64,000 nucleotides of DNA from an uncultured Bacilli bacterium (GTDB lineage Bacteria > Bacillota_I > Bacilli_A > RF39 > UBA660), in NCBI GenBank assembly GCA_947627925.1, contig CANQXW010000002.1:9575-73574 (forward strand), read 5' to 3'. The translations under genes and the position numbers were made by a program. This document shows positions 44,905 to 59,633 of this stretch, one piece after another. The notes beneath the pieces were generated by a model. That model saw only the letters and a program-made list of their open reading frames with translations, made no database searches and was not told the DNA's origin. The first letter of the stretch is position 1. Each line of letters begins with the position of its first letter.

Positions 44905-44955
44905 AAAGCCTCCTTCTTAATTATACCATAAGGAAAAGGGAAAGTTTATTTTCCC

Positions 44956-47592
44956 TTAAATATTTTCATTTCTAATCGTTTCAATCACATTTTGGCGACT
45001 TATCTTTTTAAGTGAGTATTTCATAATAACAAAAATGAGAATAAAGACAACAATGGTAGTAATCAAAATAGCCCCAAAAGGTATTTCAAAACGCATAATT
45101 AAATTACTCTTGGCAAGATAATAATAAATTAAGTAAGATAACGCTAGACCAATCGGAATTCCAATCAGTAAAGATTTAGTGCCATAAAAGATACTTTCCA
45201 AGCGAATCATGCGATTAAATTCGGGAGTAGTCATACCAATACTTTTTAAAATTGCAAATTCTCTTTTCCGCAAATTCATGTTCGTGGTAATGGTATTAAA
45301 GATATTTGTAATTCCAATTAAGGCAATAACCGTAATGAAACCATATAAGAAGATAGCTACTAAAGTAAAGAAATAATTCATTTGTTTTAAGTTTGCATCA
45401 ATATTATTGATATGAATATCATAATCTTTAAACATATCTTCTAATTGTTTCTGTACTTCGTTAGCATTTTTACTTTTTATATAAACAAAAGCTGTATCAT
45501 TTTCGGTAGTCATATCTTCATGGTATTTTTTATTACCGATTAAATAAACAGAATAATTTAAATCGGAAATAAACATCGGTTTAACATCAGTTAATGCCCC
45601 AACTATTAATGAACGTTCACCTTCATCTCCAATCGTAATATTTCCTTTAAGAATATCATTTTTCTTAAAATTATATTTTATTATCTCATGATATTTATCA
45701 TCTTGATTATTATAGATAAAGTATTTATTTAAGTAAATAAACTTATCTTTATTATCTTCATAATTAACTTTTAACTCTTTTAAATAATTGCGATAATACT
45801 CATCATTAACCATAATGACAGGAATATATTCTACAACCGTTCCATCTTCTTCAATTACCGAAGAGGCATTATTAATTTTTTGATATTCTTTGGTGTAATA
45901 TTTAGAAGGATTTTCCAATTTTAAATAGAAATCCCGGTATTCCGCTACCTCTTCAATTAAAGGTAAATCATTAATGGATGCAATTTTACCTTTTAATTCT
46001 TCATCCATTCGATTATTAAAATAAGCACTTAAACTATAATTGTAAGTTCCATATTCTAATTTAACAAACTTAAACGCATAATTAATAAATGTTGAAAGGG
46101 CAATAAAGACAGCCGAACAAACCACAATACTAATTACAGTTGTCCGATATTTCTTTTTACTTCTTTTTAAATTCTTATAAGAAATTTCGCCACCAATACC
46201 AAAGATTCGGGAAATAAATGCCGGAATCTTTAAATTTTTGGATTTAATACTTACTTCCCCACTATTGCGAATCGCTTTAATTGGAGATACTTTACTTGCC
46301 TTTTTAGCACTTCTTCTGGCTGAAAGCAAGATGGTTACGAGTCCTAAAAGAGCGGAAAATAAAATTCCTATTAAAGAGAAAGCAAAATGTAAATTTAAAC
46401 CTTCTTGAAAAGCCGCTTCTAAAAGATAGTTACTAATGAATATTAAAATATATGATGCTAATAGGCCACTTAATATTCCTAAAGGTATCCCAATTAAGGA
46501 AAGAATAAGGGCCTCTAAGTAAACACTCATTTTTATCTGCCTTTTAGTAGCCCCAACACTTCTAAGCATACCATAATCTCTAACTCTTTCGGTAACCGAA
46601 ATATCAAAACTATTTTTAATACAGAATATGGAAGTAAAAATAATGATGATAATGACTACAATGGCCACATATAATAAAACCTTAATGGCCGTATCTCCTG
46701 TTATACCAGTTTCTAGAGTTATTAAATAATTATTATAATTAAATTCATATTTAGCGTCCTTTAAAACTTCGAAATACTCCTCTAGTTTTTCTTCACTTAA
46801 ACGATTAGGAGAAAAATATAAATCTTTAATAACTTTTTCATCGCCTTCAATTAATTGGGCAACTCCTTTACTAGGATTTTTTAAAGCACTCTTAGTAAAA
46901 CGCACATAAACATCATTAACTGACGTTGCCACCTTAGTATCTAAATGCGTAATAAAGGTATAACCAGGTGCTGAATAGTCTTCAATAATCCCGGATGGTC
47001 TACTAGCAATTCCCACAATTTTAAATCTATAGTGTTTTGTTTCCACAATTTCTTCAGGCGTTTCTCCATCATAAGGATTATTTTGGGTAAGAGCATCCCC
47101 TTCACTATTAACTCTTTTGCCGACATCTAAAGTAATAAAATCGCCAACTTCTAAAGTGACTCTCCCATTAGTTTCTAGGTGACTTGGAATTACGACTTCT
47201 TCCGAGTTTTCCGGAAGCCTTCCTTTAATTAAATTCACTCCTAAATTATTTAAAGCTTTATCATCATAAGCCTTTAAATAAATATAAGGTTTATTTTCAT
47301 TTTTAATACCCTCTAATTTAGCATAACCAAGATTGTTAGTTAAATAATAGCTTTCAATATTTTTATTTAATCGGAAGGTATCAACATCACTATCTAAAAC
47401 ATTATAAAAAGCAAAATGATAATTACCATCTTTTTTACTTTCAAAGTCAATCATACTTTCTCTAGCGGAGAAAAACATACTCGTAACGGCGGAAAGCAAA
47501 GCAACTGATAAGATAATGCCCATAATGGTGACAATCGTTCTTTTTTTATTTAAAAGTAAATTAGTGGTTGTTAATTTGCGAAAAAGATGCAT
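44956..47592 (-). CDS. FtsX/MacB-type ABC transporter permease with duplicated FtsX domains (878 aa)
   Basis: Two blocks of TM helices are each preceded by a large extracytoplasmic domain, and the gene sits next to a MacB-type ATPase. The module plus TCS is arranged like Bce-type peptide-antibiotic sensing/resistance units. Confidence 0.75.
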   Translation of the reverse strand: MHLFRKLTTTNLLLNKKRTIVTIMGIILSVALLSAVTSMFFSARESMIDFESKKDGNYHFAFYNVLDSDVDTFRLNKNIESYYLTNNLGYAKLEGIKNENKPYIYLKAYDDKALNNLGVNLIKGRLPENSEEVVIPSHLETNGRVTLEVGDFITLDVGKRVNSEGDALTQNNPYDGETPEEIVETKHYRFKIVGIASRPSGIIEDYSAPGYTFITHLDTKVATSVNDVYVRFTKSALKNPSKGVAQLIEGDEKVIKDLYFSPNRLSEEKLEEYFEVLKDAKYEFNYNNYLITLETGITGDTAIKVLLYVAIVVIIIIIFTSIFCIKNSFDISVTERVRDYGMLRSVGATKRQIKMSVYLEALILSLIGIPLGILSGLLASYILIFISNYLLEAAFQEGLNLHFAFSLIGILFSALLGLVTILLSARRSAKKASKVSPIKAIRNSGEVSIKSKNLKIPAFISRIFGIGGEISYKNLKRSKKKYRTTVISIVVCSAVFIALSTFINYAFKFVKLEYGTYNYSLSAYFNNRMDEELKGKIASINDLPLIEEVAEYRDFYLKLENPSKYYTKEYQKINNASSVIEEDGTVVEYIPVIMVNDEYYRNYLKELKVNYEDNKDKFIYLNKYFIYNNQDDKYHEIIKYNFKKNDILKGNITIGDEGERSLIVGALTDVKPMFISDLNYSVYLIGNKKYHEDMTTENDTAFVYIKSKNANEVQKQLEDMFKDYDIHINNIDANLKQMNYFFTLVAIFLYGFITVIALIGITNIFNTITTNMNLRKREFAILKSIGMTTPEFNRMIRLESIFYGTKSLLIGIPIGLALSYLIYYYLAKSNLIMRFEIPFGAILITTIVVFILIFVIMKYSLKKISRQNVIETIRNENI

Positions 47593-47593
47593 T

Positions 47594-48262
47594 TTAATCC
47601 TCCACTATTTTGCCATCTTGAATTTTAATAATTCGATCAGCATTCTTCGCTATTTCTAAATTATGGGTTATCATTACTATCGTTTGTTTATAATCTTTAT
47701 TACTTCTTTTTAAAAGTTCTACAATTTCTTCACTATTTTTGGTGTCGAGATTTCCTGTTGGTTCATCGGCTAGAATAATGGTTGGACTTGTAATAAGAGC
47801 TCTACCAATAGAGGTTCTTTGTTGTTCTCCACCGGATAATTCATTGGGTAAATGTCTTCTTCTTTTGGAAAGACCTAATAAAGATAAAATATTATCTAAA
47901 TGTTCTTTCGATACTTTCCGATTATCTAAATCCATCGGCAAAGTAATATTTTCTTCCACATTTAAAATCGGAATTAAATTATAGAATTGATAAATTAATC
48001 CTACTTGTCTTCTTCTAAAAATAGCTAATTTATCATCGCTATAGGAATAAATATCTTCCCCATCAATATAAACTTTCCCACTAGTGGGCTTATCAACACC
48101 TCCAATTAAGTGTAAAAGAGTGGATTTGCCACTACCACTGGCTCCGACAATAGCCACAAATTCGCCCTTGTTAACCCTAAAAGATACATTGTCTAAGGCT
48201 ACTACCTGGGCATCGCCTTTGCCATATATTTTGGTTAAATTCTCAACCTTTAAAATTTCCAT
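47594..48262 (-). CDS. ABC transporter ATP-binding protein (MacB/LolD/BceA type)
   Basis: Walker A GASGSGKST, signature LSGGEQQR, Walker B ILADEPTGNLD. Confidence 0.9.
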   Translation of the reverse strand: MEILKVENLTKIYGKGDAQVVALDNVSFRVNKGEFVAIVGASGSGKSTLLHLIGGVDKPTSGKVYIDGEDIYSYSDDKLAIFRRRQVGLIYQFYNLIPILNVEENITLPMDLDNRKVSKEHLDNILSLLGLSKRRRHLPNELSGGEQQRTSIGRALITSPTIILADEPTGNLDTKNSEEIVELLKRSNKDYKQTIVMITHNLEIAKNADRIIKIQDGKIVED

Positions 48263-48309
48263 AATTCACCTCACACTTTAATTATATTATATCCAGTGTT
48301 ACAAGTAAG

Positions 48310-48942
48310 TTAGAAATCTTTTTTTAGATATATTTTTCTTGATATAAAATAAGAAGCCCCAATAATCAAAATAATAAACACAATAAAGAAATAAATTAAA
48401 TAATTGCCAAAGTTATTTAAAAAAGTTCCCACACTGCTTAAATCAAAGAAATTAAGTAAAAATCCTCCTCCAATAGCGATACCAAAGACTAAAACAAAAA
48501 TAATTAATCTGCCTTTTTCAATACCATATTTAAAGATTAAAGGATACATTAAAGCCACCACTAAAAGAGTACCTATAATAGAGCCAAACATTAAACCTAA
48601 ATTCTCTCCAATATTTAAGCTACCTTTACTAATAAAAGACATTAGACAAGATAAGATAAACACTAATAAAGATGTACTTAAAACTAATAATAAACTCATA
48701 ATATATTTCGCTTTAACAACATTCTCTCTTCCTTTAGGTAAAGTAATGGCATAAGCATCCCATTTGTTATATTCATCATAACTAAATGTTGATAAGCCCA
48801 TCATCACACTCATAAAAGGAGGCAAAAAAGTTAAACTATTATCCCCATTTAAAGCCATAATAATATCAATAATTAAAATAACTCCTAAAATTGTCAAATT
48901 ATTTTTAGTTGATAATAAATCCTTTATAATTAATCCCTTCAT
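48310..48942 (-). CDS. ABC-2-type transporter permease
   Basis: Six predicted TM helices; translationally coupled to the upstream ATPase. Confidence 0.7.
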   Translation of the reverse strand: MKGLIIKDLLSTKNNLTILGVILIIDIIMALNGDNSLTFLPPFMSVMMGLSTFSYDEYNKWDAYAITLPKGRENVVKAKYIMSLLLVLSTSLLVFILSCLMSFISKGSLNIGENLGLMFGSIIGTLLVVALMYPLIFKYGIEKGRLIIFVLVFGIAIGGGFLLNFFDLSSVGTFLNNFGNYLIYFFIVFIILIIGASYFISRKIYLKKDF

Positions 48943-49802
48943 TTTTCTTCACCTTTAATCATTAATACCATTAATTCATCTAAAGTTATTTTATCAATAA
49001 CCATTCCCTTATATTTTTTCTTTAAAGCATTTTTATTTTTAATTAAAACTTCATAATTGTATTTATTATTTTGATATTTCAAAATATCACTCTTATCTAA
49101 TTTCTTAAACTCTTCAATACTACATTTTAAAATACCATAACTATCCATAATATTAGAACCTAAATCATCTAAAACTATTTGGCCTTGATCAATAAAGACA
49201 ATGCGGTCTGCGACATTTTCTAAATCACTCGTAATATGCGTAGATAAAATTATCGTATGATCCTCACTTTGCATAAAGTTTAAAAAGATATCTAACACTT
49301 CTTTTCTTACAACGGGATCTAAACCACTTGTTGGCTCATCTAAAATTAATAATTTCGGATGATGAGCAATTGAGGTAATTATTTCTAATTTCTTTTTCAT
49401 TCCTTTAGAAAAAGTTTTAATAGTTTTATCTTTAGGAAGATTAAATTCTTCCAAATATTTAAAATATAATTCTTTGTCCCAATTAGCATAAATATTTTTC
49501 ATGATTAAATTAATATCTAAAGGAGTTAAGATTTCCGGAAAAAACATATCGTCTAAAACAACACCAATATCTTTTTTATTGACTTCTTCCCCTTCTAAAT
49601 AATCGCGGTTAAATAATTTAATCTTCCCCTTATCAGGTTTAATAATATTTAAAAGGAGTTTAATTAATGTGGTTTTACCAGCTCCATTTTCGCCAATTAA
49701 ACCAATTATTTCGCCTTTAGGAATATTTAGATTAATAGGTCCTAAAGAAAATTTATCATAATTTTTACTTAAATCTTTAATTTCAATTATATTCATATTC
49801 AC
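48939..49802 (-). CDS. ABC transporter ATP-binding protein
   Basis: Walker A GENGAGKTT, signature FSKGMKKK, Walker B LILDEPTSGLD. Confidence 0.9.
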   Translation of the reverse strand: MNMNIIEIKDLSKNYDKFSLGPINLNIPKGEIIGLIGENGAGKTTLIKLLLNIIKPDKGKIKLFNRDYLEGEEVNKKDIGVVLDDMFFPEILTPLDINLIMKNIYANWDKELYFKYLEEFNLPKDKTIKTFSKGMKKKLEIITSIAHHPKLLILDEPTSGLDPVVRKEVLDIFLNFMQSEDHTIILSTHITSDLENVADRIVFIDQGQIVLDDLGSNIMDSYGILKCSIEEFKKLDKSDILKYQNNKYNYEVLIKNKNALKKKYKGMVIDKITLDELMVLMIKGEEK

Positions 49803-50170
49803 TCTCCATAAAATATATCTAATAAACTCTTAAATTCTTTTTTTGAAATATTATTTTTCTTCGCTATATTAACTGCTTCCATTAAATGCTTCTCTAATTC
49901 TTTCTGAGCAGTTTCTTTAATTAATTCTTTATTTTTCGGTGCAATAAAAGTTCCTTTCCCTTGAACCTGAATAATATAGCCTTCATCTTCTAATTCATCA
50001 TACGTTTTTTTAATCGTCATAATACTTATCTTTATTTCTTCTGCTAAACTTCTAATGGAAGGAAGAGAATCATTTTCTTCTAAATTGCCCTCTAATATTT
50101 CTTCAATAATGGCTTTTTTAATTTGCTCATAAATCGGAACCATACTACTATTACTAATAATTATTTTCAT
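49799..50170 (-). CDS. GntR-family (YtrA-subfamily-like) transcriptional regulator
   Basis: PIYEQIKKAI...LPSIRSLAEEIKISIMTIKKTYDELEDEGYI. It is short with no effector domain and leads an ABC operon. The preferred start is MKIII at 50170. Confidence 0.8.
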   Translation of the reverse strand: MKIIISNSSMVPIYEQIKKAIIEEILEGNLEENDSLPSIRSLAEEIKISIMTIKKTYDELEDEGYIIQVQGKGTFIAPKNKELIKETAQKELEKHLMEAVNIAKKNNISKKEFKSLLDIFYGE

Positions 50171-50180
50171 ATCTACCTCA

Positions 50181-50217
50181 TATATAACACTATATAACAC
50201 TATATATCACTTGTCAA
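50181..50217 (-). promoter_or_regulatory. promoter of the GntR-ABC operon overlapped by three tandem decamers (candidate operator)
   Basis: On the minus strand, TTGACA (plus 50212-50217), a 17-nt spacer, then TATAGT (50189-50194). The plus strand carries TATATAACAC TATATAACAC TATATATCAC at 50181-50210. Confidence 0.45.
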
Positions 50218-50421
50218 TATATAATGTTTAAAAAAAATATTCTACCATATATTCAAAGGTAATTACTCCTTAAATATACAAGTAGAATATATGTATAGCC
50301 TTCAGCTTAGAAGTGAAAGCTTTTAGAATTGGGGTAAATATTATTATCTTCATTATTTATTATTTTTTTTCATTAATAATTATCATTTATTCATAACTCA
50401 AAATTATTTTGCAACTTGTGT

Positions 50422-50531
50422 AATAAAAAAACGCCTAATTCAGCAATTAACTACCCCAACTTAAATTCGGCAACATCCAACACAGAAATATTTGAATGTT
50501 CCTTTTTTATTGTATTCAAGTTTCCTTGAAC
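50422..50531 (-). ncRNA. candidate small RNA (orphan copy of the module at 56.8 kb)
   Basis: It lies downstream of the promoter at 50538-50567. It has the 5' hairpin UGUUCAAG-GAAA-CUUGAAUA, then AAAAAAGGAACAUUCAAAUAUU..., and ends at a GCCgAAUU...AAUUaGGC stem followed by GUUUUUUU. The boundaries are inferred. Confidence 0.3.
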
Positions 50532-50537
50532 AATAAT

Positions 50538-50567
50538 ATTATAGCATGTAATGATTTTTTCTGCCAA
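50538..50567 (-). promoter_or_regulatory. sigma-A-type promoter (extended -10), copy A
   Basis: On the minus strand, TTGGCA, an 18-nt spacer, then TGcTATAAT. Confidence 0.5.
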
Positions 50568-50596
50568 AAAAAGATACTCTATTTCTAAAGTATCTT
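50564..50596 (-). terminator. intrinsic terminator of surface-protein gene 1
   Basis: On the minus strand, AAGATACT-ttagaaatag-AGTATCTT followed by T7. Confidence 0.7.
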
Positions 50597-50731
50597 CTCT
50601 ATACTAATTTGTAAATAATTGTTTTACAATTACCACAAGTTCTGTGGAAAGGTTTGTGAGAATGAACTTTAGGGTGTTTGCGAGTCCCTAAAATTTATTT
50701 AAACAATTTATTTACCAATTTAGTAACTTAA

Positions 50732-52219
50732 TTAGTTGTTTTCTTTTCTTTTTGTAGAAAAGCTAACTGTTAAGGCACTTACTAGACCTAATCCAGCATA
50801 AACTAAGATATTATCATTAGTTTTTGGTACATCTGGCACATTAGGGTTTGTGTCTTCTGGAGTTGTTCCTGGAGTGTTTGCTTCGTCTCCAGTACTTCCT
50901 TGTTGATCTTCAGGTTTTTTATCTGGTGCTTGAGCGCCATTACCTACTACCACGTTTCCATTTTCATCAGTTGTGAATTCAGCGCTAGCTAATGCTTTAA
51001 CAAAATCATCATCTGAATATTTTTCAGAACCTAATCTTATATCATTACCAATTAATCCGCCAATGAATTCTCCACCTGAAATCATATTTTTATGTTGATC
51101 AAGGAAATTTTTATCTAAGTCTTCAATATGCATAACTGGTAAATATTTGCCGTTATTTCCTTTTCCACTTGTAAATTTGCCTCCTGAAACAGCTAATTTA
51201 GTATCTTCGGTTACTCCCTTGATATAAACAGCATATTCATTAGCCTTTTTAGCAGTAAATTCTCCACCTGAAATTGCTACATCAACATATTTTGGTCCAT
51301 TATAAGTAGTACCGTCATCATTTTGCATTGCAAGCACTGCAATTGCATGGTTAGATTCACCATCGTGAACTCCTTTTTGATGTTGTGCATCAGTAGCTGT
51401 ATAAGTACCACCAGTAATACTAACTTTACCACTTCTAACAGTAACAGCTTGAGCACCTTTTACAGTACCATTAATAGTCCAAATACCATATCCTGATGCG
51501 TATAAAGCTGTTGCTTGATTTGATGTATATGTACCAGCATTTACATTAATTACTGGTGCATTTTTATCATATGCAATAAATCCGTTAACCTTTATTACAT
51601 AGCCTTCAGTAGTCCAAGTACCATCCATATCAATTGTTGTATTCTTAGCTGTAGAAATTCTACTTGAAACCGGGCCATTAACTCCTAAAACTAAACCATA
51701 TCCAGTAGAAGTAACAGTAACATCCTTTCCAAAAGATACAGCAGTTGTAAGATCTGTATTATCATTTCCTGCAACTAATACAACAGCTGAATTATCATCA
51801 TCCGTGGTACCATTGCCTTTTAATTCAACTGAACCTTCTACCTTTAAAGTAGATCCAGCCTCAACTTTAATTAATGGAACACCTGCACCAGCAACATTTT
51901 TAATAATTCCGCTAGTTCCTGTTATAGTAACATTAGCATCTGATTTTATTATAATGCTGTGTCCATTGGCAACAGTAATAGTTTTACCATTTAAATCAAG
52001 AGTGATATCTTTATCAATATCTCTATCTACTGATAAACTTGATGCCTTTAATACTTTGACTGTATCACCTTTTTGAGCATGATCTAAAGCATCTGTTAAA
52101 GAAGTTTCACATACATCATTTAGATAAGCTTCACCCATACATTCAACTTCAGCTCTAACACCCATAGTCATTACTAACATACTTAGTAATGCGATTGCAA
52201 ACATTTTTAAACTTTTCAT
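50732..52219 (-). CDS. secreted, C-terminally anchored surface protein with beta-helix-like repeats, paralog 1
   Basis: Signal peptide MKSLKMFAIALLSMLVMTMGVRA. Repeated SGG(T/E/K)F(T/I) turns. A Pro/Glu/Asp linker. C-terminal VPKTNDN, a hydrophobic helix and KRKENN. Confidence 0.8.
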   Translation of the reverse strand: MKSLKMFAIALLSMLVMTMGVRAEVECMGEAYLNDVCETSLTDALDHAQKGDTVKVLKASSLSVDRDIDKDITLDLNGKTITVANGHSIIIKSDANVTITGTSGIIKNVAGAGVPLIKVEAGSTLKVEGSVELKGNGTTDDDNSAVVLVAGNDNTDLTTAVSFGKDVTVTSTGYGLVLGVNGPVSSRISTAKNTTIDMDGTWTTEGYVIKVNGFIAYDKNAPVINVNAGTYTSNQATALYASGYGIWTINGTVKGAQAVTVRSGKVSITGGTYTATDAQHQKGVHDGESNHAIAVLAMQNDDGTTYNGPKYVDVAISGGEFTAKKANEYAVYIKGVTEDTKLAVSGGKFTSGKGNNGKYLPVMHIEDLDKNFLDQHKNMISGGEFIGGLIGNDIRLGSEKYSDDDFVKALASAEFTTDENGNVVVGNGAQAPDKKPEDQQGSTGDEANTPGTTPEDTNPNVPDVPKTNDNILVYAGLGLVSALTVSFSTKRKENN

Positions 52220-52279: not shown

Positions 52280-52544
52280 TACTTATTTTTGCTAATTTTT
52301 GACAAATCATTATTTTTTACAAAAAAGATATAATTTCTTTATATTATATTTATTATTTTATATTTTGATTACAATTTAAAAAATTATATACTATTATCGT
52401 GTAAATAAGGATCATTCTAAAATAAAAAGAGAAAATTCACTTAGTAACTTTCTCAATTTATTATAATCCTACTCCTATTTCTAGTTGTAATTTTATTACT
52501 TCTGAAATAAAAAAATTTGTATTCAAGTTTCCTTGAACAATAAT

Positions 52545-52574
52545 ATTATAGCATGTAATTACTTTTTCTGCCAA
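52545..52574 (-). promoter_or_regulatory. sigma-A-type promoter (extended -10), copy B
   Basis: TTGGCA, an 18-nt spacer, then TGcTATAAT. The GAAA-tetraloop hairpin is followed here by ACAAAUUUUUUUAUUU, so the transcript would probably be very short. Confidence 0.45.
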
Positions 52575-52603: not shown

Positions 52604-52738
52604 CTCTATACTAATTTGTAAATAATTGTTTTACAATTACCACAAGTTTTGTGGAAAGGTTTGTGAGAATGAACTTTAGGGTGTTTGCGAGTCCCTAAAA
52701 TTTATTTAAACAATTTATTTACCAATTTAGTAGCTTAA

Positions 52739-54196
52739 TTAATTGTTTTCTTTTCTTTTTGCAGAAAAGCTAACTGTTAAGGCACTTACTAGACCTAAAC
52801 CAGCATAAACAAGAATGTTATCATTTGTTTTTGCAGGTTCGTCTGGTAAACGACCTGTTGTTCCGTCTGCTGGAGTGTTTGCGTCTCCAGTATTTCCTTG
52901 ATCTTCAGGTTTTGTTTGATCTTCTGGTTTTTGTTCATCAGCAGGGGTGTTAGTATTAACATCACCTTTAACTAATTCAGCAGTAAATTCTTCATCAGTA
53001 TATTTTACGCCATCTACAGTAATTTCACCAACTACACCGCCAGTGAATGTTCCACCAGTAATCATATCTTTATGATTTTCAAACATAAGTTGAGCACTAG
53101 CATTATTAACATACATAGCTGGTAATTGAGTTCCTTTAACTGAATCTTTACCACTTGTAAATGTACCACCACTGATAGCTAATTTAGATCCTTCAACTAT
53201 TTTTCCGACATATATTGCATACGCATCTTCAGTATTAGCAGTAAATGTACCACCTGAAACAATTAAATTCATATATTCTGGATGATATGTAGAACTATCT
53301 TTCTTTTCGTCTCCTAAGATAGCAATAGCATGATTACCTTCGCCATCGTGAACACCTTCACCGTTTTTTGTATTAGTAGCTGTATAACTTCCTCCACTAA
53401 TATCTACCTTACCACTTCTAACTGCAACAGCTTGAGAGCCTTTTACAGTCCCACCATCAATATCCCATTCAGCATATCCTGATGCATATAATGCAGTTGC
53501 TTTATTTGAAGTATATGTACCTTCAGCTATAGTAATCTTCACAGGATTAGAACTTTTAGTAATATATCCATTAACTTTTACAACATAAGCATCTGTAGTC
53601 CAGGTACCATTCATTGTAATATCAATATTTTGAGCCGTTGTAGTAGATCCATCACCAACAACTAAACCATGTAATTTTGAAGTAGCGACAACACCTTTTT
53701 CAAAATATACAGTAGTATTGTTAGTATTGATGTTTTTTACTCTTACAACAGCAGAGTCAATTTCAGTAGCATTATTGACTAAATTAACTGAATCTTCTAC
53801 CTTTAATGTAGCTCCAGAATTTACAGTAATCAATGATGTTTTAACTGCTGCAACATTTTCAACTGTACCAGTTCCTTTCAAAGTAAGTTTTGCACCATTT
53901 ACTATAATTCCAGCACCATTAGTAGTAGTAAATTTAAGGCTCTTGCCGTTTAAATCAATAGTAATATTTTGACTAATTTCAATGGAACTGCTTTCTTCAG
54001 CATCAGCTTCTAGTTTAATTGTATCGCCAATTCCTGCTCCTCTAATAGCTGTAGATAAATCTGCATAACAAGTAAGTTTACCATCAACTAGTCTCGAATA
54101 CTCATCGTTACTATCTGTACATGATGCAGCATGTACACCTGTTGCCATTACAGCAAATGCCATAACAGCGATTGCAAACATTTTTAAACTTTTCAT
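52739..54196 (-). CDS. secreted, C-terminally anchored surface protein with beta-helix-like repeats, paralog 2
   Basis: Signal peptide MKSLKMFAIAVMAFAVMATGVHA. Shared blocks are TWTT..YV.KVNG, GTYTSN.ATALYASGY, VRSGKV and GVHDGE.NHAIA. The C-terminus is PAKTNDNILVYAGLGLVSALTVSFSAKRKENN. Confidence 0.8.
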   Translation of the reverse strand: MKSLKMFAIAVMAFAVMATGVHAASCTDSNDEYSRLVDGKLTCYADLSTAIRGAGIGDTIKLEADAEESSSIEISQNITIDLNGKSLKFTTTNGAGIIVNGAKLTLKGTGTVENVAAVKTSLITVNSGATLKVEDSVNLVNNATEIDSAVVRVKNINTNNTTVYFEKGVVATSKLHGLVVGDGSTTTAQNIDITMNGTWTTDAYVVKVNGYITKSSNPVKITIAEGTYTSNKATALYASGYAEWDIDGGTVKGSQAVAVRSGKVDISGGSYTATNTKNGEGVHDGEGNHAIAILGDEKKDSSTYHPEYMNLIVSGGTFTANTEDAYAIYVGKIVEGSKLAISGGTFTSGKDSVKGTQLPAMYVNNASAQLMFENHKDMITGGTFTGGVVGEITVDGVKYTDEEFTAELVKGDVNTNTPADEQKPEDQTKPEDQGNTGDANTPADGTTGRLPDEPAKTNDNILVYAGLGLVSALTVSFSAKRKENN

Positions 54197-54533: not shown

Positions 54534-55733
54534 ATGTTAATTCAATTTAAATTTAAAAATCATAAATGTTTTTATGACGAAACTTTTTTAGACTTATTAG
54601 CCACTCAAGAAAAAAGGCATTTGGAATCGACAATTAATGTCAATGGTTATAATATCTTACCAGTAATTGCTATTCATGGAGCTAATGCTTCTGGAAAAAG
54701 TAGTGCCTTAGAGGCTTTAGATTTCATGTTTGAACTTATCAAGTATTCAAATAAAACTGATATTAAAAATAATTTACCAGCAAATCCCTTTTTATTTAGT
54801 CAAAAAAGTGCTGATGAAAATAGCGAATATGAAATCTCAATTTGCTTAGGTGATTATGAATATCGTTACGGATTCTCATTAAATAAACAACAAATTGATG
54901 AAGAATGGTTATATGTTAAAAAATTTGCTATTAATACTAAAGCTTCCCAAAAAACTATTTTTGAAAGATCAAATAATAAAGTTACCTTTGGCAAAAATTA
55001 TGCTAAATATGAAAAAACTTGGAATTTATTTGGAAAAGATATTATTATAAATACTAATAAACTATTAGTTTTAAGTAATTTAGCCATTAAAGAAGAAACT
55101 GGTATTTTAAGAGATATTTATGATTATATTTGTAAATTTGATTTTAAACTAGCTAGCGAATTTCAAAAAGCCAGTATTGATATCTTAACCCAAGACGATT
55201 CAATATTTCAAAAATTTCAAAATATTATTAATGAATTTGATCCTTGTTTACTAGGAATTGAAATTGTTCCCGTAGAAACAGAAGAGGGAGAAAAATATAT
55301 TATTAGTGGTATTCATAAAAATATTGATAATTCTAAATTACCAATTTCAATCCCTATTCATAAAGAATCTGATGGTACTATTCGTCTTTTTGGTATTATA
55401 CCAAGAATTTTAAAAAATTTAGAAAATGGGGGATTATTATGTATTGACGAAATAGATATAAAATTACACCCTTTATTATTTAAAAAAATTGTAAGTATGT
55501 ATATGGATAAAACAATTAATAAAAATAATGCCCAGTTAATTTATACTTCCCATTCAACATTTTTATTTAATAGTAATACTTTACGAAGAGATCAATTATA
55601 TCTTGTCGAAAAAGATAACACTGGGAAATCCAAGTTATACTCTTTGTCAGAATTTAGAGATTTACGAGCTGATGCCGATTATGAAAAAAAATATTTAACT
55701 GGTCAGTTCGGAGCCATTCCATATGAGAAATAG
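54534..55733 (+). CDS. ABC/SMC-like AAA_21-type ATPase (defence-associated family)
   Basis: Walker A GANASGKSS, signature-like ESDGTIRLF, Walker B LLCIDEIDIKLHP and H-loop YTSHS. It is followed by an RloB-like gene. Confidence 0.75.
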   Translation: MLIQFKFKNHKCFYDETFLDLLATQEKRHLESTINVNGYNILPVIAIHGANASGKSSALEALDFMFELIKYSNKTDIKNNLPANPFLFSQKSADENSEYEISICLGDYEYRYGFSLNKQQIDEEWLYVKKFAINTKASQKTIFERSNNKVTFGKNYAKYEKTWNLFGKDIIINTNKLLVLSNLAIKEETGILRDIYDYICKFDFKLASEFQKASIDILTQDDSIFQKFQNIINEFDPCLLGIEIVPVETEEGEKYIISGIHKNIDNSKLPISIPIHKESDGTIRLFGIIPRILKNLENGGLLCIDEIDIKLHPLLFKKIVSMYMDKTINKNNAQLIYTSHSTFLFNSNTLRRDQLYLVEKDNTGKSKLYSLSEFRDLRADADYEKKYLTGQFGAIPYEK

Positions 55734-55741
55734 GTAAAAAT

Positions 55742-56430
55742 ATGGGAAGTGACAATTTATATAAAAGACGTACTACCGAAAGGCGTCAAAGACAAGAAAA
55801 TATAAAAAAGAACGCTCTAGTAATTGGTTAATAGTATGTGAGGGAAAGAAAACAGAACCAAACTATTTTACAAACGCTATTGAAGAAATTAATAAAAATA
55901 TTGATAGTAAATATAAATTTAAAGTCAAAATTGTTGGTAAAGGAATGAATACCAAATCTTTAGTTAAAGCGGCAGATTTACAAATTGAAATTGATAAATA
56001 TTCTTATAATGAAATACCATATGGAAAAATATTTGTTGTATTTGATAAAGATAGCTTTGATGCTGATGATTTTGATGAAGCAATAAAAATGTGTGAAAAT
56101 AATGGGTATATTCCACTATGGTCTAACCAAGCAATTGAATTTTGGTTTTTATTACATTTTAATTATATATTTTCTAAAATGAATAGAACAGAATATGCTA
56201 AAAAAATTAATGAATATTTTAAAAAGAAAGGGCTTAATTATAAATATAAGAAAAATGACAAAGAAATATACAATTTACTTTGTAAATATGGTTCATTAGA
56301 AAAAGCCAAAACAAATGCTAAAAAAATTATGAAGGAGTTTCAAGGAGAAAAACCATCATTATCAGAAAGTTGTACAAATGTATATAAATTCTTTGATGAA
56401 ATTGATAGTCGATTAAAAGAATTAAAATAA
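55742..56430 (+). pseudogene. RloB-like (Toprim-like) protein gene, interrupted at an A_AAA_AAG / A6 run
   Basis: ATG at 55742 gives MGSDNLYKRRTTERRQRQENIKKNALVIG*. The -1 frame continues ERSSNWLIVCEGKKTEPNYF...VVFDKD...WSNQAIEFWFLLHF (RloB signatures) to 56430. The A-run is at 55804-55809; A7 or a -1 slip restores the frame. Confidence 0.7.
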
Positions 56431-56475: not shown

Positions 56476-56577
56476 ATACTAATTTTGTAAATAATTGCTT
56501 GACAATTAATGCCATAATTTCTTTATGTTATATTGCTTATTTTATTTTTTGACTACATTTTAAAAAAGTTTCATAAT
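56476..56577. repeat. fused copy of the two cassette flanks (cassette-less junction)
   Basis: tatactaattttgtaaataattgcttgacaatta matches the 3' flank of units A/B (50601-50632). ataatttctttatgttatattgcttattttattttttgactacattttaaaaaa matches their 5' flank (52330-52381). Only about 6 nt (atgcc) lie between the two. Confidence 0.7.
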
Positions 56578-56592
56578 GTCCGCATATTTTTG

Positions 56593-56622
56593 TTGACTTC
56601 AAAAACGTTAGTTTGCTATACT
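56593..56622 (+). promoter_or_regulatory. promoter of the small hydrophobic peptide gene
   Basis: TTGACT, an 18-nt spacer, then TGcTATACT (extended -10). The 5' UTR is about 57 nt and carries the hairpin CTTGC-tgaatttc-GCAAG just before the SD AAAGGAGG. Confidence 0.55.
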
Positions 56623-56685
56623 CTTATTAGGAACATTTGAATAGTTGGGTGCTTGCTGAATTTCGCAAGAAAGGAGGCGATCTTT

Positions 56686-56769
56686 ATGAACAAGAAGGAT
56701 TTGTTAATCTTATCTCAAGTAGTAATTATCTTCCTTTTATTATTTTTACTATTTGTAGTATTAATATAA
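56686..56769 (+). CDS. 27-aa hydrophobic peptide, candidate type I toxin
   Basis: A strong SD, AAAGGAGG, lies 7 nt upstream of the ATG. The peptide MNKKDLLILSQVVIIFLLLFLLFVVLI is a polar N-terminus plus one TM helix. It is too short for the ORF track. Confidence 0.5.
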   Translation: MNKKDLLILSQVVIIFLLLFLLFVVLI

Positions 56770-56885
56770 ATTGAAAAGAACCTAACTCATCATCTATGAT
56801 TTAGGTTCAACCAAAATAAATTCTGCAACACTCAACACTAGAATATTTGAATGTTCCTTTTTTATTGTATTCAAGTTTCCTTGAC
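56770..56885 (-). ncRNA. convergent small RNA, candidate type I antitoxin
   Basis: It starts after the promoter at 56892-56920. It has the GAAA-tetraloop hairpin and AAAAAAGGAACAUUCAAAUAUUC.... It ends at the 8-bp terminator GAACCUAA/UUAGGUUC followed by UUUUC, right at the peptide stop codon. The U-run exists only on this strand. Confidence 0.4.
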
Positions 56886-56891
56886 ATATTC

Positions 56892-56920
56892 ATTATAACA
56901 TATAATTAATTTAATGACAA
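56892..56920 (-). promoter_or_regulatory. sigma-A-type promoter, copy C (drives the convergent small RNA)
   Basis: On the minus strand, TTGTCA (plus 56915-56920), a 17-nt spacer, then TATAAT (56892-56897). Confidence 0.55.
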
Positions 56921-56921
56921 A

Positions 56922-57848
56922 TTATTCTATATAAAACTCCCATAAATTCTTAATTTGACCTTTAAGACGACTATAATCCCAAAGAATATTACTTCTTATT
57001 TTACTATTAGGATCATTTACCTTTATTTTTCCATCTTGAACACTCACTAACACAATGTAATGGCCATTGATTGTAAAATCTCCTTTCCGCATACTACAAA
57101 TAATAGGATGTCCATTATTTAAAGCATTTTTAATACTTGCCTCATCTAAAGGAAGTTCTTTGGATTTAAGACCAAAATGATTCGCACCTTTCCGCATTAA
57201 ATCCCATGTTGTTCCACTACTTTCTAAATAATAACCATTTTCATAAGCGTATTTACTAACTTCATAAGGCGTATAATCACCGTTACCAGTTAAACCCGCA
57301 ATTACCATAGCTAGTGATGTTGGACCACAACCACTAATAGCAACATTACTACTGCCATATTTGCCATAACCCCATCTTTCATCCCATTGGAGTAACAACG
57401 GTATTTCTCCTTTTGTTACACTACCAATATTATCACTATAAACTTTGTCTTTCTTTTCTTGATAATTTAAGACAAAATCAGTAAGTTCAATATTTCTGGA
57501 TAAATCCTCTAATAATACTTCTGGATAGGTATTATAATTATCAATAATATCATTAATTCTTTTATCAATTTTACTGAAATTTTTTAATCTTTCCCTAATT
57601 GTTCCCTTTTCATACTTAAGCATCGAAACATCTTCATATGTTTGATATTTACTATAATCAATATTATCTTTATTTTCTTCATGATTATCATTATCAATAA
57701 TTACAGTATCAAGGGTTAACATTTTAAAATAATGATAATAAAAGAAAATTATGCCTCCGATTAATCCTAAAATAATTATTAATTTTAATATTTTTTTTCG
57801 TTTTTTTCTTCTTTTCATAAAACACCTCATTATAAAACCCATTTTCAT
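56922..57848 (-). CDS. membrane-anchored C39-like cysteine peptidase domain protein
   Basis: A basic N-terminus and TM helix. SGCGPTSLAMVIAG, and later GHYIVLV, are typical of the Peptidase_C39_2 family. The start is ambiguous. Confidence 0.7.
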   Translation of the reverse strand: MKMGFIMRCFMKRRKKRKKILKLIIILGLIGGIIFFYYHYFKMLTLDTVIIDNDNHEENKDNIDYSKYQTYEDVSMLKYEKGTIRERLKNFSKIDKRINDIIDNYNTYPEVLLEDLSRNIELTDFVLNYQEKKDKVYSDNIGSVTKGEIPLLLQWDERWGYGKYGSSNVAISGCGPTSLAMVIAGLTGNGDYTPYEVSKYAYENGYYLESSGTTWDLMRKGANHFGLKSKELPLDEASIKNALNNGHPIICSMRKGDFTINGHYIVLVSVQDGKIKVNDPNSKIRSNILWDYSRLKGQIKNLWEFYIE

Positions 57849-57907
57849 TGTAGCAAAACGAGAAAATGGGTTTATTAATAATGTCTTAGAAATTTCTTAA
57901 GATTTTC

Positions 57908-58963
57908 TTAAAGAGGCAATTTTATCGTAAATTTAGTTTCCTCTTCATCACTAGAGGCCGCTATATCGCCATGATGTTTTAAAATAATTTCTTTAGAAAT
58001 AGCCAGGCCTAAACCAGATCCTCCTAAAGATGTTTTACGGGCTTTATCAACTCGATAAAATTTAGTAAATATTTTAGTTAAATCTTCTTCTTTAATCTTA
58101 TCTCCTTTATTACTAATAGTTAAGTAAGCATATTTATTATCTATATAAGTAGTTATTAAAATAGATGTATCTTGATAACTATAATTTAAAGCATTTTTAA
58201 TTAAATTGCCAATAACTCTTGCTAAAAGATTAGAATCAGCTTTTAAAACTATTTTGTCTTTTTTTATAAATTTGATTTCTTTATGTAAACTTAAAGTAAG
58301 AGGATAAAAATCATCTATAATTTGTTCAACCATTAAATTAAGATTTATTTCTTCTTTTTGAAGTTTAACCTCATCTAAACTAAATTTAGTGATATCAAAT
58401 AATTCATTAATCAATTCTTCTAATCTTTCGGATTTACTTAAAGCAATATCTAAATATTTTTTTCTATTTTCTAAAGGTAAGTTATTTTCTTCTTTTAATA
58501 AATGTAAATAACCAATTAAACTAGTTAAAGGGGTTTTGATATCATGGGCTAAATAAACAATTAAATCGTTTTTCTTTTTCTCTTCTAAAAAAGCCTTTTC
58601 TTTAATTTTATTTAAACTTATCTCAATATCTTTTAATTCATCGGGAAGGCGAATATATTCATTTGGAATTAAAAGTTTACTACTTCCTAAAACAATTGCG
58701 TCAATATAAGCAAGGGTTTTTCTTAAATGATAAAAAGATATAATGGCGACTCCAATTAACCAGACAATAACTTCAATAATAACATTATCTTTAATCATTT
58801 TTAAAAATTGATAGGTTTTATCGTAAGGTTGCCAGACATAAGATTCACAATAAGTTCTCGCAATAATATAGATAAGAAGAAAGATACAAGTATAAATAGT
58901 TGTACTTAAAATTATTTTTTTAACTAATTTTTTTGTTAACGCATTTCCATATTTATTTTTCAA
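57908..58963 (-). CDS. sensor histidine kinase (VanS-like architecture)
   Basis: Two TM helices, H-box LAHDIKTPLTSL, N-box NLIKNALNYS, and GSGLGLAISKEI. Confidence 0.85.
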   Translation of the reverse strand: MKNKYGNALTKKLVKKIILSTTIYTCIFLLIYIIARTYCESYVWQPYDKTYQFLKMIKDNVIIEVIVWLIGVAIISFYHLRKTLAYIDAIVLGSSKLLIPNEYIRLPDELKDIEISLNKIKEKAFLEEKKKNDLIVYLAHDIKTPLTSLIGYLHLLKEENNLPLENRKKYLDIALSKSERLEELINELFDITKFSLDEVKLQKEEINLNLMVEQIIDDFYPLTLSLHKEIKFIKKDKIVLKADSNLLARVIGNLIKNALNYSYQDTSILITTYIDNKYAYLTISNKGDKIKEEDLTKIFTKFYRVDKARKTSLGGSGLGLAISKEIILKHHGDIAASSDEEETKFTIKLPL

Positions 58964-59633
58964 TGATATAACCTACTCCCCAAATAGTTTTAATATACTT
59001 AGGATCTTTCCCTGTATCATGCATTTTCTCTCTTAAATGTCTTATATGAACCATTATGGTATTATTATCATTCTCATAATATTTCTCTTGCCAAACATGA
59101 AAGAATAAATCTTCACATGCTACTACTTCTCCTCTATTTTGACATAAATACCATAAAATTTTAAATTCAATCGGGGTTAAATCTAATTCTGTATTATTTA
59201 AAGAACATTTATGAGTTTTATTATTAATAACTAAACCGCGAAAATAAATTTCTTCACTGTTATCTACTTGATATTCTTTATATCTTCTAATATTAGCTTT
59301 AACTCTGGCTACTAATTCTAAAGGTTCAAATGGTTTCGTTAAATAATCATCAGCTCCTAAAGAAAGGCCTTTAATTTTATCTAAACTATTAATTTTCGCT
59401 GTGACAAAAATAATTGGAAAATTATAATTCTTTCTTATTTCTTGACATAACTGAAAACCATCTAAATCATTCATCATAATATCTAATATTGCTAAATCAA
59501 TCTTTTTCGTTTTTAAAAATTCTAAAATATTTTTACTTTCATAAAACTTAAAGACTTGGTAACCTTCATTTTGTAAATATATTTCGATTAAATCCGCAAT
59601 CTCTTTTTCATCATCACATACTAAAATATTCAT
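58953..59633 (-). CDS. OmpR-family response regulator
   Basis: MNILVCDDE...LDIMMNDLDG...KP; the winged helix ends WGVGYII. Confidence 0.85.
   Translation of the reverse strand: MNILVCDDEKEIADLIEIYLQNEGYQVFKFYESKNILEFLKTKKIDLAILDIMMNDLDGFQLCQEIRKNYNFPIIFVTAKINSLDKIKGLSLGADDYLTKPFEPLELVARVKANIRRYKEYQVDNSEEIYFRGLVINNKTHKCSLNNTELDLTPIEFKILWYLCQNRGEVVACEDLFFHVWQEKYYENDNNTIMVHIRHLREKMHDTGKDPKYIKTIWGVGYIIEK

What the first reader, a model, noticed from the sequence alone, without database searches (positions are those of the whole stretch)
56593..56920. Candidate type I toxin-antitoxin locus: a 27-aa hydrophobic peptide gene with a convergent small RNA
On the plus strand there is a promoter (TTGACT, 18-nt spacer, TGcTATACT), a structured ~57-nt leader and a very strong SD (AAAGGAGG). 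The ORF encodes MNKKDLLILSQVVIIFLLLFLLFVVLI, a charged N-terminus plus one TM helix.

On the minus strand there is a good promoter (TTGTCA, 17-nt spacer, TATAAT). A ~115-nt transcript from it would end at an 8-bp hairpin followed by UUUUC, placed exactly at the peptide stop codon. The hairpin has a U-run only on the minus strand. The peptide mRNA should therefore read through and overlap the small RNA across its whole length.

This is the 3'-overlap arrangement of TxpA/RatA and BsrG/SR4. The locus also sits next to a defence-like gene pair.
Basis: inference. Interest (0 to 1): 0.65.

Follow-up and report, generated by a model that had tools for sequence, protein, structure and literature searches.

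The report
New type I toxin-antitoxin-like RNA module
The flagged spot is one intact copy of a previously undescribed, multi-copy family of tiny membrane-peptide genes. Each gene is paired with a small antisense RNA, built like the Bacillus subtilis bsrG/SR4 toxin-antitoxin system, so it is a sound but unsurprising new member of a known kind.

Summary

- **Family.** The ~333-nt module (56573-56905) recurs at least 12 times in three or more related uncultured rabbit-gut Bacilli genomes and metagenome assemblies. There are three subtypes plus a divergent relative (L017). All share a sigma-70 promoter, a strong SD, a 26-30 aa ORF (basic N-terminus plus one hydrophobic helix), and a convergent ~113-nt RNA with its own promoter. 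That RNA's terminator sits at the ORF stop codon.
- **Peptide mRNA.** It most likely does not read through indefinitely. Its first ~35 nt pair with a 3' arm that is followed directly by U6 (-27 to -37.5 kcal/mol, z -6.5 to -10). One subtype has a completely different but still complementary inner helix. This is the bsrG mRNA design (helix P1). The overlap with the antisense RNA is ~90 nt.
- **Decay.** Two decayed copies lie in the same window (50298-50600 and 52448-52565). The intact orthologue of one is present in a sister genome.
- **Known families.** Nothing matches in Rfam, Pfam or NCBIfam.
- **Untested.** Toxicity and antitoxin action.

Verdict: a new family of a known kind, of moderate interest.

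The parts
56573..56592 (+). Conserved element directly upstream of the toxin -35 (ATAATGTCCGCATATTTTTG). It marks the left border of the ~333-nt conserved module.
   Evidence: It is kept in 8 of 9 full units. The border is defined by the L005/window match 56573-56905 at 95% identity. The same element precedes unrelated small hairpin RNAs in L012.
56593..56622 (+). Toxin promoter: TTGACT, 18-nt spacer, TGcTATACT (extended -10).
   Evidence: Found in the scan. It is conserved in all units apart from small -10 variants and one unit with a weak -35.
56629..56864 (+). Predicted toxin mRNA of ~236 nt, from the predicted start AGGAAC to the U6 tract.
   Evidence: MFE -64.9 kcal/mol, z -5.8, and 0 of 200 shuffles fold as well. 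The same fold is seen in all family members.
56629..56663 (+). 5' arm of the long-range helix (equivalent to bsrG P1).
   Evidence: Duplex with the 3' arm is -34.7 kcal/mol against -11.6 +/- 2.9 for shuffles. 91% of cells are paired across 9 units, against 34-47% when the partner is slid.
56670..56677 (+). Shine-Dalgarno AAAGGAGG, 8 nt before the ATG. It is predicted to pair with CUUCCUUU inside the ORF (56729-56736).
   Evidence: Sequence. P(unpaired) is 0.14 in the free mRNA. The same SD/anti-SD pair is kept in the divergent unit L017.
56686..56769 (+). 27-aa ORF MNKKDLLILSQVVIIFLLLFLLFVVLI (candidate toxin). It has a KKD N-terminus and one hydrophobic helix.
   Evidence: ORF listing. GRAVY is 2.23 and the best 19-aa window scores 3.21. 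An ORF of 26-30 aa with an SD is present in every unit. In L017 the ORF is 90% identical while the flanking segments are 51-75% identical.
56773..56808 (-). Intrinsic terminator of the antisense RNA (SL3). The stem is GAACCUAAAUCAU/AUGAGUUAGGUUC, followed by UUUUC, and starts 4 nt after the toxin stop codon.
   Evidence: Inverted repeat I8. The position at the stop codon is conserved, with compensatory stem changes (GAACCTAA / CGCCTAA / ACCTAA / GACACTTAAG / CACCTAAC).
56818..56858 (+). 3' arm of the long-range helix. The same DNA forms a local hairpin on the plus strand (a possible mRNA terminator) and SL2 of the antisense RNA on the minus strand.
56859..56864 (+). U6 tract: the predicted 3' end of the toxin mRNA and the proposed toehold for the A-rich linker of the antisense RNA.
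   Evidence: T5-T7 directly follows the 3' arm in all units. Its role as 3' end and toehold is inferred.
56773..56885 (-). Predicted antisense small RNA of ~113 nt (candidate antitoxin). It consists of SL1 (CAAG-GAAA-CUUG), an A-rich linker, SL2 and the SL3 terminator.
   Evidence: MFE -27.9 kcal/mol, z -3.1. The consensus of 8 sequences has 28 pairs, 7 of them with compensatory changes. The first ~45 nt are invariant across the alpha, beta and gamma units.
56892..56920 (-). Antisense RNA promoter: TTGTCA, 17-nt spacer, TGtTATAAT.
   Evidence: Best promoter in the scan, 11 of 12. The -10 is kept in all units. A -35 (TTGACA, TTGGCA, TTGAAT or TTGAAA) lies 17-18 nt away in otherwise unrelated flanks.
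50298..50600 (+). Decayed beta-type paralogue (copy B). The toxin promoter and start codon are lost, and a TTA-to-TAA nonsense change is present. The antisense promoter and the 5' half of the antisense RNA (50456-50558) are retained. The antisense terminator is degraded.
   Evidence: Self-BLAST gives 84% over 104 nt, E 3e-25. Sequence; nhmmer 143 bits. It is orthologous to the intact unit in L002, with flanks colinear at 91% over 5.7 kb.
52448..52565 (+). Remnant (copy C). It holds the C-terminal two-thirds of a toxin ORF without a start (…LSQFIIILLLFLVVILLLLK*), joined directly to the antisense promoter region.

Best explanation
The locus is an intact member of a lineage-specific, multi-copy family of type I toxin-antitoxin-like modules. 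It works like bsrG/SR4 of Bacillus subtilis.

**The peptide mRNA**
- A sigma-70 promoter makes a ~236-nt mRNA for a 27-aa membrane peptide.
- The mRNA is closed by a ~35-bp helix between its extreme 5' end and a 3' arm that is followed directly by U6.
- Its SD is buried in a helix, so the full-length transcript is stable but poorly translated.

**The antisense RNA**
- A convergent promoter makes a ~113-nt RNA that is perfectly complementary to the last ~90 nt of the mRNA, from the stop codon to the 3' end.

**Proposed sequence of events (inferred)**
1. The single-stranded A-rich linker of the small RNA pairs with the U-tail of the mRNA.
2. The small RNA invades the 3' arm and displaces the 5' arm.
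3. The resulting ~90-bp duplex is cut by RNase III.
4. The freed 5' end is exposed to 5'-dependent decay. In the beta subtype the freed strand also tightens SD sequestration.
5. Peptide synthesis is thereby prevented.

**Shown versus inferred**
- Shown in silico: conservation of both transcription units, of the ORF, and of both RNA structures.
- Inferred: transcript ends, the toehold pathway, the nucleases involved, the toxicity of the peptide, and the antitoxin role of the small RNA.
For: **Anatomy**
- All elements are confirmed in the window.

**Homologues**
- Homologous units are found in L001, L002, L005, L006 (three copies), L007, L010 (two copies), L012-14 and L017. All have the same architecture.

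**Long-range helix**
- It is present in every unit at -27 to -37.5 kcal/mol, z -6.5 to -10.1, with 0 of 500 shuffles as stable.
- The gamma subtype has an unrelated inner-helix sequence that pairs only with its own partner: -37.5 kcal/mol cognate against -19 to -27 non-cognate.
- Across 9 units, 91% of cells are paired, against 34-47% in slid controls.

**Antisense RNA**
- It has a conserved three-hairpin structure, with compensatory changes in the terminator located at the stop codon.

**Translation signals**
- The SD is predicted to be mostly paired, with P(unpaired) 0.08-0.16.
- When the 3' UTR is blocked, the 5' end changes from paired to free: P(unpaired) 0.03-0.12 rises to 0.25-0.82.

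**Coding**
- An ORF of 26-30 aa with an SD is kept in three sequence-unrelated cores.
- In the distant unit L017 the ORF is the best-conserved segment: 90% identity against 51-75% for the other segments.

**Decay and nuclease**
- Toxin-first decay is seen in copy B, whose orthologue in L002 is intact.
- RNase III is encoded in a carrier genome.

**Known precedent**
- In bsrG mRNA, nt 1-35 pair with nt 232-262 in helix P1, the SD lies in a helix, and SR4 overlaps the 3' end (PMC3834814).
- B. subtilis type I antitoxins bind mRNA 3' ends over 100-140 bp and recruit RNase III (PMC6562991).
Against: - There is no transcript, toxicity or neutralisation data. The organisms are uncultured.
- The peptides match no curated toxin family and the RNAs match no Rfam family.
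- Within subtypes, nonsynonymous codon differences are as frequent as synonymous ones, although they are mostly I/L/V/F swaps. Purifying selection on the peptide is therefore shown mainly by the L017 comparison.
- The terminator-like features are weak in the window copy. The antisense RNA has only four U's, and the local plus-strand hairpin is only -2.4 kcal/mol.
- The terminator scan did not call either one.
- Predicted SD accessibility changes little on antisense binding in the alpha and gamma subtypes.
Confidence: 0.7

Rival explanations
1. The gene encodes a non-toxic small membrane protein under cis-antisense control. The sense/antisense pair is real, but the peptide has an ordinary physiological role (for example a membrane-protein partner) and the small RNA only tunes its level.
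For: - The peptides match no known toxin family.
- Several units sit next to, and divergent from, secreted surface-protein genes in tandem arrays. This could hint at a linked function.
- Toxicity is untested.
Against: - The module is multi-copy, with at least 5 copies per genome.
- It sits in unrelated contexts.
- It shows cassette swapping at one orthologous site.
- It decays toxin-first while the antisense promoter is retained.
- The mRNA is locked and its SD sequestered, which is typical of type I toxins.
Confidence: 0.17
2. The unit is a repeated non-coding element, such as a MITE-like inverted-repeat element or a structured ncRNA. The ~35-nt inverted repeat would be the functional part and the ORF incidental.
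For: - A 35-nt inverted repeat flanks ~150 nt (I6).
- The unit is multi-copy and occupies different genomic sites.
- There is no strong dN/dS signal within subtypes.
Against: - Conservation extends well beyond the inverted repeat on both sides, into both promoters.
- The repeat arms co-vary rather than being conserved as a protein-binding sequence would be.
- Three unrelated cores each keep an SD, a start codon and a 26-30 aa hydrophobic ORF.
- The ORF is the best-conserved segment in the comparison with L017.
- No target-site duplications are evident.
Confidence: 0.05
3. The small RNA mainly acts in trans, for example on the interleaved surface-protein genes or on other paralogous toxin mRNAs. 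The overlap with the local peptide gene would be secondary.
For: - The first ~45 nt of the small RNA are invariant across the alpha, beta and gamma units, while the rest varies.
- Decayed copy B keeps just this part together with its promoter.
- Units alternate with surface-protein genes at a 2.13-kb period in L006.
Against: - In the window, the invariant 21-mer matches only the two units themselves.
- Pairing of the small RNA with the mRNA 5' region is no better than in shuffles.
- The invariance is also explained by three overlapping constraints on the same DNA: the mRNA 3' arm and terminator, SL2 of the small RNA, and the small-RNA promoter.
Confidence: 0.06
4. The features are a chance constellation of promoter-like and hairpin-like sequences in AT-rich intergenic DNA.
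For: Promoter-like sites are common here: 9 were found against 5.7 expected.
Against: About 12 homologous units show conserved architecture and compensatory changes. Fold z-scores are -5.8 and -3.1.
Confidence: 0.01

Closest known systems
bsrG/SR4 (Bacillus subtilis SPbeta prophage; type I TA)
   Same: - The genes are convergent.
[quoted passage not shown]
- The toxin mRNA is closed by a long helix between its first ~35 nt and a 3' segment (P1).
- The SD lies inside a helix.
- The duplex is a substrate for RNase III.
- In the beta subtype, antisense binding is predicted to increase SD sequestration, as SR4 does.

Sources: PMC3834814, PMC6562991, and here.
   Different: - There is no detectable sequence similarity of peptide or RNAs.
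- The peptide is 26-30 aa rather than 38 aa.
- There is no separate terminator stem-loop after P1. The 3' arm itself, or a local hairpin within it, is followed by the U-run.
- The overlap is ~90 nt against 123 nt, and the small RNA is 113 nt against ~180 nt.
- The module is not on a recognisable prophage.
- It has a modular structure, with invariant ends and exchangeable cores.
txpA/RatA, bsrE/SR5 and yonT/SR6 (B. subtilis type I TA)
   Same: The antisense RNA overlaps the 3' end and ends near or inside the 3' end of the ORF. The presumed mode of action is RNase III-dependent mRNA decay (PMC6562991; T1TAdb paper PMC8594479).
   Different: - The toxins are unrelated and mostly longer (my recollection: 30-59 aa).
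- There is no Rfam hit to the curated antitoxin families.
- The conserved 5'-3' closing helix ending in a U-run is the dominant feature here.
Fst/RNAII (par) and SprA1/SprA1as
   Same: These are Gram-positive systems with a small hydrophobic peptide of about 30 aa and a convergent antisense RNA on the 3' side.
   Different: - In those systems the functional pairing lies outside the overlap, at the mRNA 5' region or RBS (PMC8594479).
- par uses one shared bidirectional terminator.
- Here, pairing with the 5' region is no better than in shuffles.
- Here there are two separate unidirectional terminators.
- No Fst-family profile matched the peptides.
hok/Sok and aapA/IsoA (Gram-negative type I TA with a 5'-3' long-distance interaction)
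   Same: The primary toxin transcript is locked by pairing of its 5' and 3' ends, and the SD is sequestered. This similarity rests on established knowledge of these systems.
   Different: In those systems the antisense RNA binds the 5' part of the mRNA, and activation requires 3' trimming. Here the antisense RNA covers the 3' arm itself.

Membership tests
Type I toxin-antitoxin system (generic kind) | Small (<60 aa) hydrophobic peptide ORF with its own promoter and RBS | tested here: met
   The ORFs are 26-30 aa with a GRAVY of 1.3-2.2. An SD lies 7-9 nt upstream, and the promoter is conserved.
Type I toxin-antitoxin system (generic kind) | Antisense RNA with its own promoter and terminator, complementary to the toxin mRNA | tested here: met
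   A conserved -10/-35 and a Rho-independent terminator are present, with an 88-95 nt perfect overlap. No transcript data exist.
Type I toxin-antitoxin system (generic kind) | The peptide is toxic when overproduced | not testable with these tools
   This needs expression experiments.
Type I toxin-antitoxin system (generic kind) | The RNA prevents toxin synthesis | not testable with these tools
   Only structural predictions are available.
BsrG/SR4 family | Sequence homology of toxin and antitoxin to BsrG and SR4 | tested here: not met
   There is no Pfam or NCBIfam hit for any of 5 peptides at E<=10, other than a sub-threshold SecE match. There is no Rfam hit at E<=1-10 in the window or in 7 loci.
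BsrG/SR4 family | Helix P1 between the mRNA 5' end (~35 nt) and a 3' segment, the SD in a helix, and a 3'-overlapping antisense RNA | tested here: met
   compared with PMC3834814.
BsrG/SR4 family | A separate terminator stem-loop (SL4) after P1 | tested here: not met
   The U-run follows the 3' arm directly. Only a local hairpin within the arm is present.
TxpA/RatA family | Match to a curated type I antitoxin RNA family (Rfam) or to a toxin homologue | tested here: not met
Fst/RNAII (par) | Fst-family toxin | tested here: not met
   No profile hit.
Fst/RNAII (par) | Interaction through repeats at the 5' ends outside the overlap, and a shared bidirectional terminator | tested here: not met
   The duplex between the small RNA and the mRNA 5' region is -25 to -33 kcal/mol, against -27 +/- 4 for shuffles. 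There are two separate terminators with strand-specific U-runs.

The most novel reading that the evidence does not exclude
The family may be a modular cassette system. Invariant ends (the toxin promoter with the 5' arm, and the 3' arm with the antisense head and its promoter) would serve as recombination handles that let different toxin cores be swapped at a site. This is seen for alpha against beta at one orthologous locus. Every antisense RNA carries the same ~45-nt head and every toxin mRNA the same tail. Any antitoxin, including orphan ones such as copy B, could therefore engage any paralogous toxin mRNA. That would form a cross-protective network, interleaved with and possibly stabilising a variable surface-protein gene array.
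Probability: 0.2. Interest if true: 0.6.

Novelty: new member of a known kind. Interest (0 to 1): 0.45.

Why it matters
- It adds a type I TA-like family from an uncultured gut Bacilli lineage where none is described. A literature search found no paper linking type I TA systems and Erysipelotrichaceae. T1TAdb covers 24 families from 218 species.
- It shows that the bsrG-type design recurs with unrelated sequences. That design combines a 5'-3' closed mRNA with a 3'-overlapping antisense RNA.
- The natural set of three cores sharing identical regulatory ends is a ready-made comparative system. It can be used to ask which RNA features set antitoxin specificity.
- The peptides are shorter than the 30-aa and 40-aa minimum query lengths of the protein tools used here. 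The only library entry found for this family was a 96-aa fused gene call. Such loci are therefore easy to miss in standard annotation.

Tried and rejected
- **Rfam.** I searched the region at E<=10, the whole window at gathering threshold, and seven homologous loci at E<=1. No relevant family was found.
- **Peptide profiles.** Pfam and NCBIfam searches with five peptides gave no toxin family.
- **Phages and plasmids.** BLAST of the locus gave nothing in plasmids. The phage hits were only short, weak AT-rich matches. A viral-contig pattern scan gave 0 hits.
- **Metagenome scan.** A scan with the promoter-block pattern returned one chance hit inside a gene (L008). In the genome scan, L003 (Neobacillus) and L004 (Bacteroidetes) were chance hits.
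- **Exact-product look-ups.** Look-ups of the 38-aa extended ORF, the C39-like protein and the surface protein found nothing on record.
- **Trans pairing with the mRNA 5' region.** I tested whether the small RNA pairs in trans with the mRNA 5' region or SD, as in SprA1as and Fst. The result was no better than shuffles, so this was rejected. The 12-nt direct repeat D4 allows 11 of 12 pairing in the alpha subtype. By my inspection of the aligned sequences it is interrupted in the beta subtype.
- **A protein-coding small RNA.** I asked whether the minus-strand RNA encodes a protein (TTG ORF 56794-56874). The frame is not conserved, because of indels in the variable part and a 1-nt shift in the gamma subtype. 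This was rejected.
- **Link to the C39-like peptidase and two-component genes.** I asked whether the peptide is a bacteriocin or pheromone precursor tied to these neighbours. It has no double-glycine motif, and the other family members lack these neighbours. This was rejected.
- **Link to the AbiL pair.** Only the window copy is adjacent to it.

Full report
**Observation**

The window is 27.5% GC DNA from a Firmicute (RNase P class B).

- The plus-strand promoter is TTGACT (56593-98), an 18-nt spacer, then TGcTATACT (56614-22).
- The SD is AAAGGAGG (56670-77).
- The ORF runs 56686-56769 and encodes MNKKDLLILSQVVIIFLLLFLLFVVLI.
- A hairpin lies at 56778-56808 with a U-run on the minus strand only.
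- The minus-strand promoter is TTGTCA-17-TATAAT (56920..56892). It matches 11 of 12 positions and has a TG.

Consensus matches alone are weak evidence in such AT-rich DNA: 9 promoter-like sites were found against 5.7 +/- 2.2 in shuffles. I therefore looked for relatives.

**A family, not a single locus**

Self-comparison found two further pieces in the window.

- Copy B (50298-50600) is 84% identical to 56811-56912 over 104 nt.
- Copy C (52448-52565) is a remnant.

One exact-pattern scan of 185,579 species genomes returned five true homologues in two rabbit-gut MAGs, both labelled "uncultured Bacilli bacterium" (L001, L002, L005, L006, L007). It also returned two chance hits. A profile search found more copies in L006 and L001. 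Contigs carrying homologues of the neighbouring surface protein yielded further copies (L010, L012-14). A full HMMER scan with the TTG-extended ORF found one hit, which led to a more divergent unit (L017).

The units fall into three subtypes. They share nearly identical ends but have different cores.

- Alpha: the window copy, L005, and more distantly L017.
- Beta: peptides such as MNKKDI[IL]IFSL..IIYSLL...
- Gamma: MPKRIFCIKVLRYITIILLLLTLLVIEIKK.

Every unit has the toxin promoter, an SD 7-9 nt before an ATG or GTG, and an ORF of 26-30 aa with a basic N-terminus and one hydrophobic helix. Every unit also has a hairpin immediately after, or overlapping, the stop codon, with a T-run only on the minus strand. 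A convergent TATAAT is present with a -35 at 17-18 nt, even where that -35 lies in unrelated flanking DNA.

The conserved module in the window spans 56573-56905.

**The peptide mRNA is a closed RNA**

From the predicted start (A at 56629), the first ~35 nt pair with 56818-56858, which is followed directly by U6. The whole 247-nt stretch folds at -64.9 kcal/mol (z -5.8).

The same helix exists in every unit at -27 to -37.5 kcal/mol, z -6.5 to -10, with 0 of 500 shuffles as stable. In the gamma subtype the inner half of the helix has an unrelated sequence (GAGUGUCUACC/GGUAGACAUUC) that pairs only with its own partner: -37.5 kcal/mol against -19 to -27 in non-cognate combinations.

On a MAFFT alignment of the arms, 91% of cells are paired, against 34-47% for slid partners. 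Double-sided changes in fixed columns are few because the sequences are close. RNAalifold recovers the helix independently.

The 3' arm can also form a local hairpin just before the U-run (-2.4 to -11.6 kcal/mol). The plus strand therefore does have a terminator-like signal. The mRNA probably ends at 56859-56866 and overlaps ~91 nt of the small RNA, not its whole length.

The SD is predicted to be mostly paired, with P(unpaired) 0.08-0.16. In the alpha subtype it pairs with CUUCCUUU inside the ORF. That pairing is kept in L017.

**The antisense RNA**

The predicted RNA runs 56885 to 56773 (113 nt; z -3.1). It has a conserved architecture:

- SL1 with a GAAA loop;
- a single-stranded A-rich linker;
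- SL2, which is the complement of the mRNA 3' arm;
- the SL3 terminator, with compensatory stem changes between subtypes.

In L017, SL1 has a different sequence but still forms a hairpin. An ORF on this strand is not conserved in frame.

**Coding evidence**

Within subtypes, codon changes are as often nonsynonymous as synonymous, although most are I/L/V/F exchanges. That comparison is therefore not decisive.

Two observations are stronger.

- Three unrelated cores all keep an SD-led 26-30 aa hydrophobic ORF at the same place.
- Between the window copy and L017 the ORF is 90% identical, while the leader (75%), the 3' UTR (64%) and the promoters (51-61%) have diverged.

**Evolutionary behaviour**

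L002 is colinear with window 44921-50637 at 91% identity. Its intact beta unit is therefore the orthologue of window copy B. Copy B has lost the toxin promoter and start codon and carries a nonsense codon, but it keeps the antisense promoter and head.

At another orthologous site one MAG has an alpha core and the other a beta core. The module ends and flanks are 84-100% identical there, while the cores are 20-60% identical.

In L006 and in the window, units alternate with paralogous ~480-500 aa secreted proteins at a ~2.1-kb period. Other copies sit in unrelated contexts.

Multi-copy status, mobility and toxin-first decay are all typical of type I TA loci.

**Mechanism**

The best-supported model is bsrG/SR4-like. 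Experimentally, nt 1-35 of bsrG mRNA pair with nt 232-262 (P1), the SD lies in a helix, and SR4 overlaps the 3' end (PMC3834814). B. subtilis type I antitoxins bind the 3' 100-140 nt of the mRNA and trigger RNase III cleavage (PMC6562991).

Blocking the overlap region in silico frees the 5' end: P(unpaired) rises from 0.03-0.12 to 0.25-0.82. In the beta subtype it also lowers SD accessibility to 0.00-0.02. A carrier genome encodes RNase III.

I infer a toehold between the invariant U-tail of the mRNA and the A-rich linker of the small RNA. Displacement of the 5' arm would follow, then RNase III cleavage and 5'-end-dependent decay.

A trans interaction with the 5' region or SD, as in SprA1as or Fst, is not supported.

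**Comparison and novelty**

No Rfam, Pfam or NCBIfam family matches. The locus is therefore not a member of the BsrG, TxpA, Fst or SprA1 families by sequence.

It shares the Gram-positive arrangement with the antisense RNA on the 3' side (PMC8594479). With bsrG specifically it shares the P1 helix. It differs in four ways:

- there is no separate terminator after P1;
- the peptides are shorter;
- the ends are invariant around exchangeable cores;
- it is interleaved with surface-protein genes.

This makes it a new member of a known kind.

**Limits**

- All transcript ends are predictions, and toxicity and neutralisation are untested.
- The taxonomic range is unknown beyond a few related rabbit-gut genomes and assemblies, because only exact-pattern scans were possible.
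- T1TAdb could not be queried.

Noticed in passing
window 50732-52219 (-) and 52739-54196 (-); L006 1129-6829: There is a tandem array of paralogous ~480-500 aa secreted proteins. They have a signal peptide (MK[SN]LKMFAI...) and a C-terminal hydrophobic anchor, and no Pfam domain. They repeat at a ~2.1-kb period, and each is preceded divergently by a TA-like unit or its remnant. Homologues are rare (57 hits) and come mostly from related MAGs.
   Followed up: partly
window 54534-56430 (+): This is an AbiL-like defence pair: AbiLi at 5.7e-80 and AbiLii/RloB at 1.3e-15. The AbiLii reading frame is broken. Its N-terminal piece (55742-55831) ends in two in-frame stops, and the Pfam match of the 161-aa ORF starts at profile position 46. 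It is probably a pseudogene or an assembly error.
   Followed up: partly
window 56573-56592; L012 1440-1790 (-): The element ATAATGTCCGCATATTTTT, immediately upstream of a TTGAC(T/A) -35, is not specific to the toxin promoter. In L012 it also precedes two tandem ~65-nt GC-rich perfect-hairpin RNAs that end in U-runs and have no Rfam match. It may be a shared UP-like element or regulator site for small-RNA promoters in this lineage.
   Followed up: partly
window 50601-50632, 52608-52639 and 56476-56508: A 32-nt motif, ATACTAATTTGTAAATAATTGTTTTACAATTA, contains the palindrome TAATTG...CAATTA. It occurs twice exactly (0 expected by chance) just after the terminators downstream of copies B and C. 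It occurs once more, with a 1-nt insertion and 2 changes, upstream of the intact unit. Its function is unknown.
   Followed up: no
L005 5240-5410 versus L007 6550-6720: At one orthologous chromosomal site, two related MAGs carry different toxin cores (alpha against beta) between near-identical module ends. This implies recombination between paralogous units.
   Followed up: partly
window 57825-57883: A near-perfect ~57-nt palindrome lies between the C39-like peptidase gene and the histidine-kinase gene. It scored as a spurious miRNA hit in Rfam on both strands. It is probably a bidirectional terminator.
   Followed up: no
L017 41-331 (P0058): The only database protein that contains a family peptide is a 96-aa gene call. 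It reads through a TGA, apparently called with genetic code 4, and fuses upstream DNA and the leader to the 27-aa ORF. This is an annotation artefact that hides the real small gene.
   Followed up: yes
window 56922-59633 (-): A Peptidase_C39_2-like membrane protein is followed by a HisKA/HATPase histidine kinase and a response regulator on the minus strand, immediately downstream of the unit. No link to the unit was found in other genomes.
   Followed up: partly
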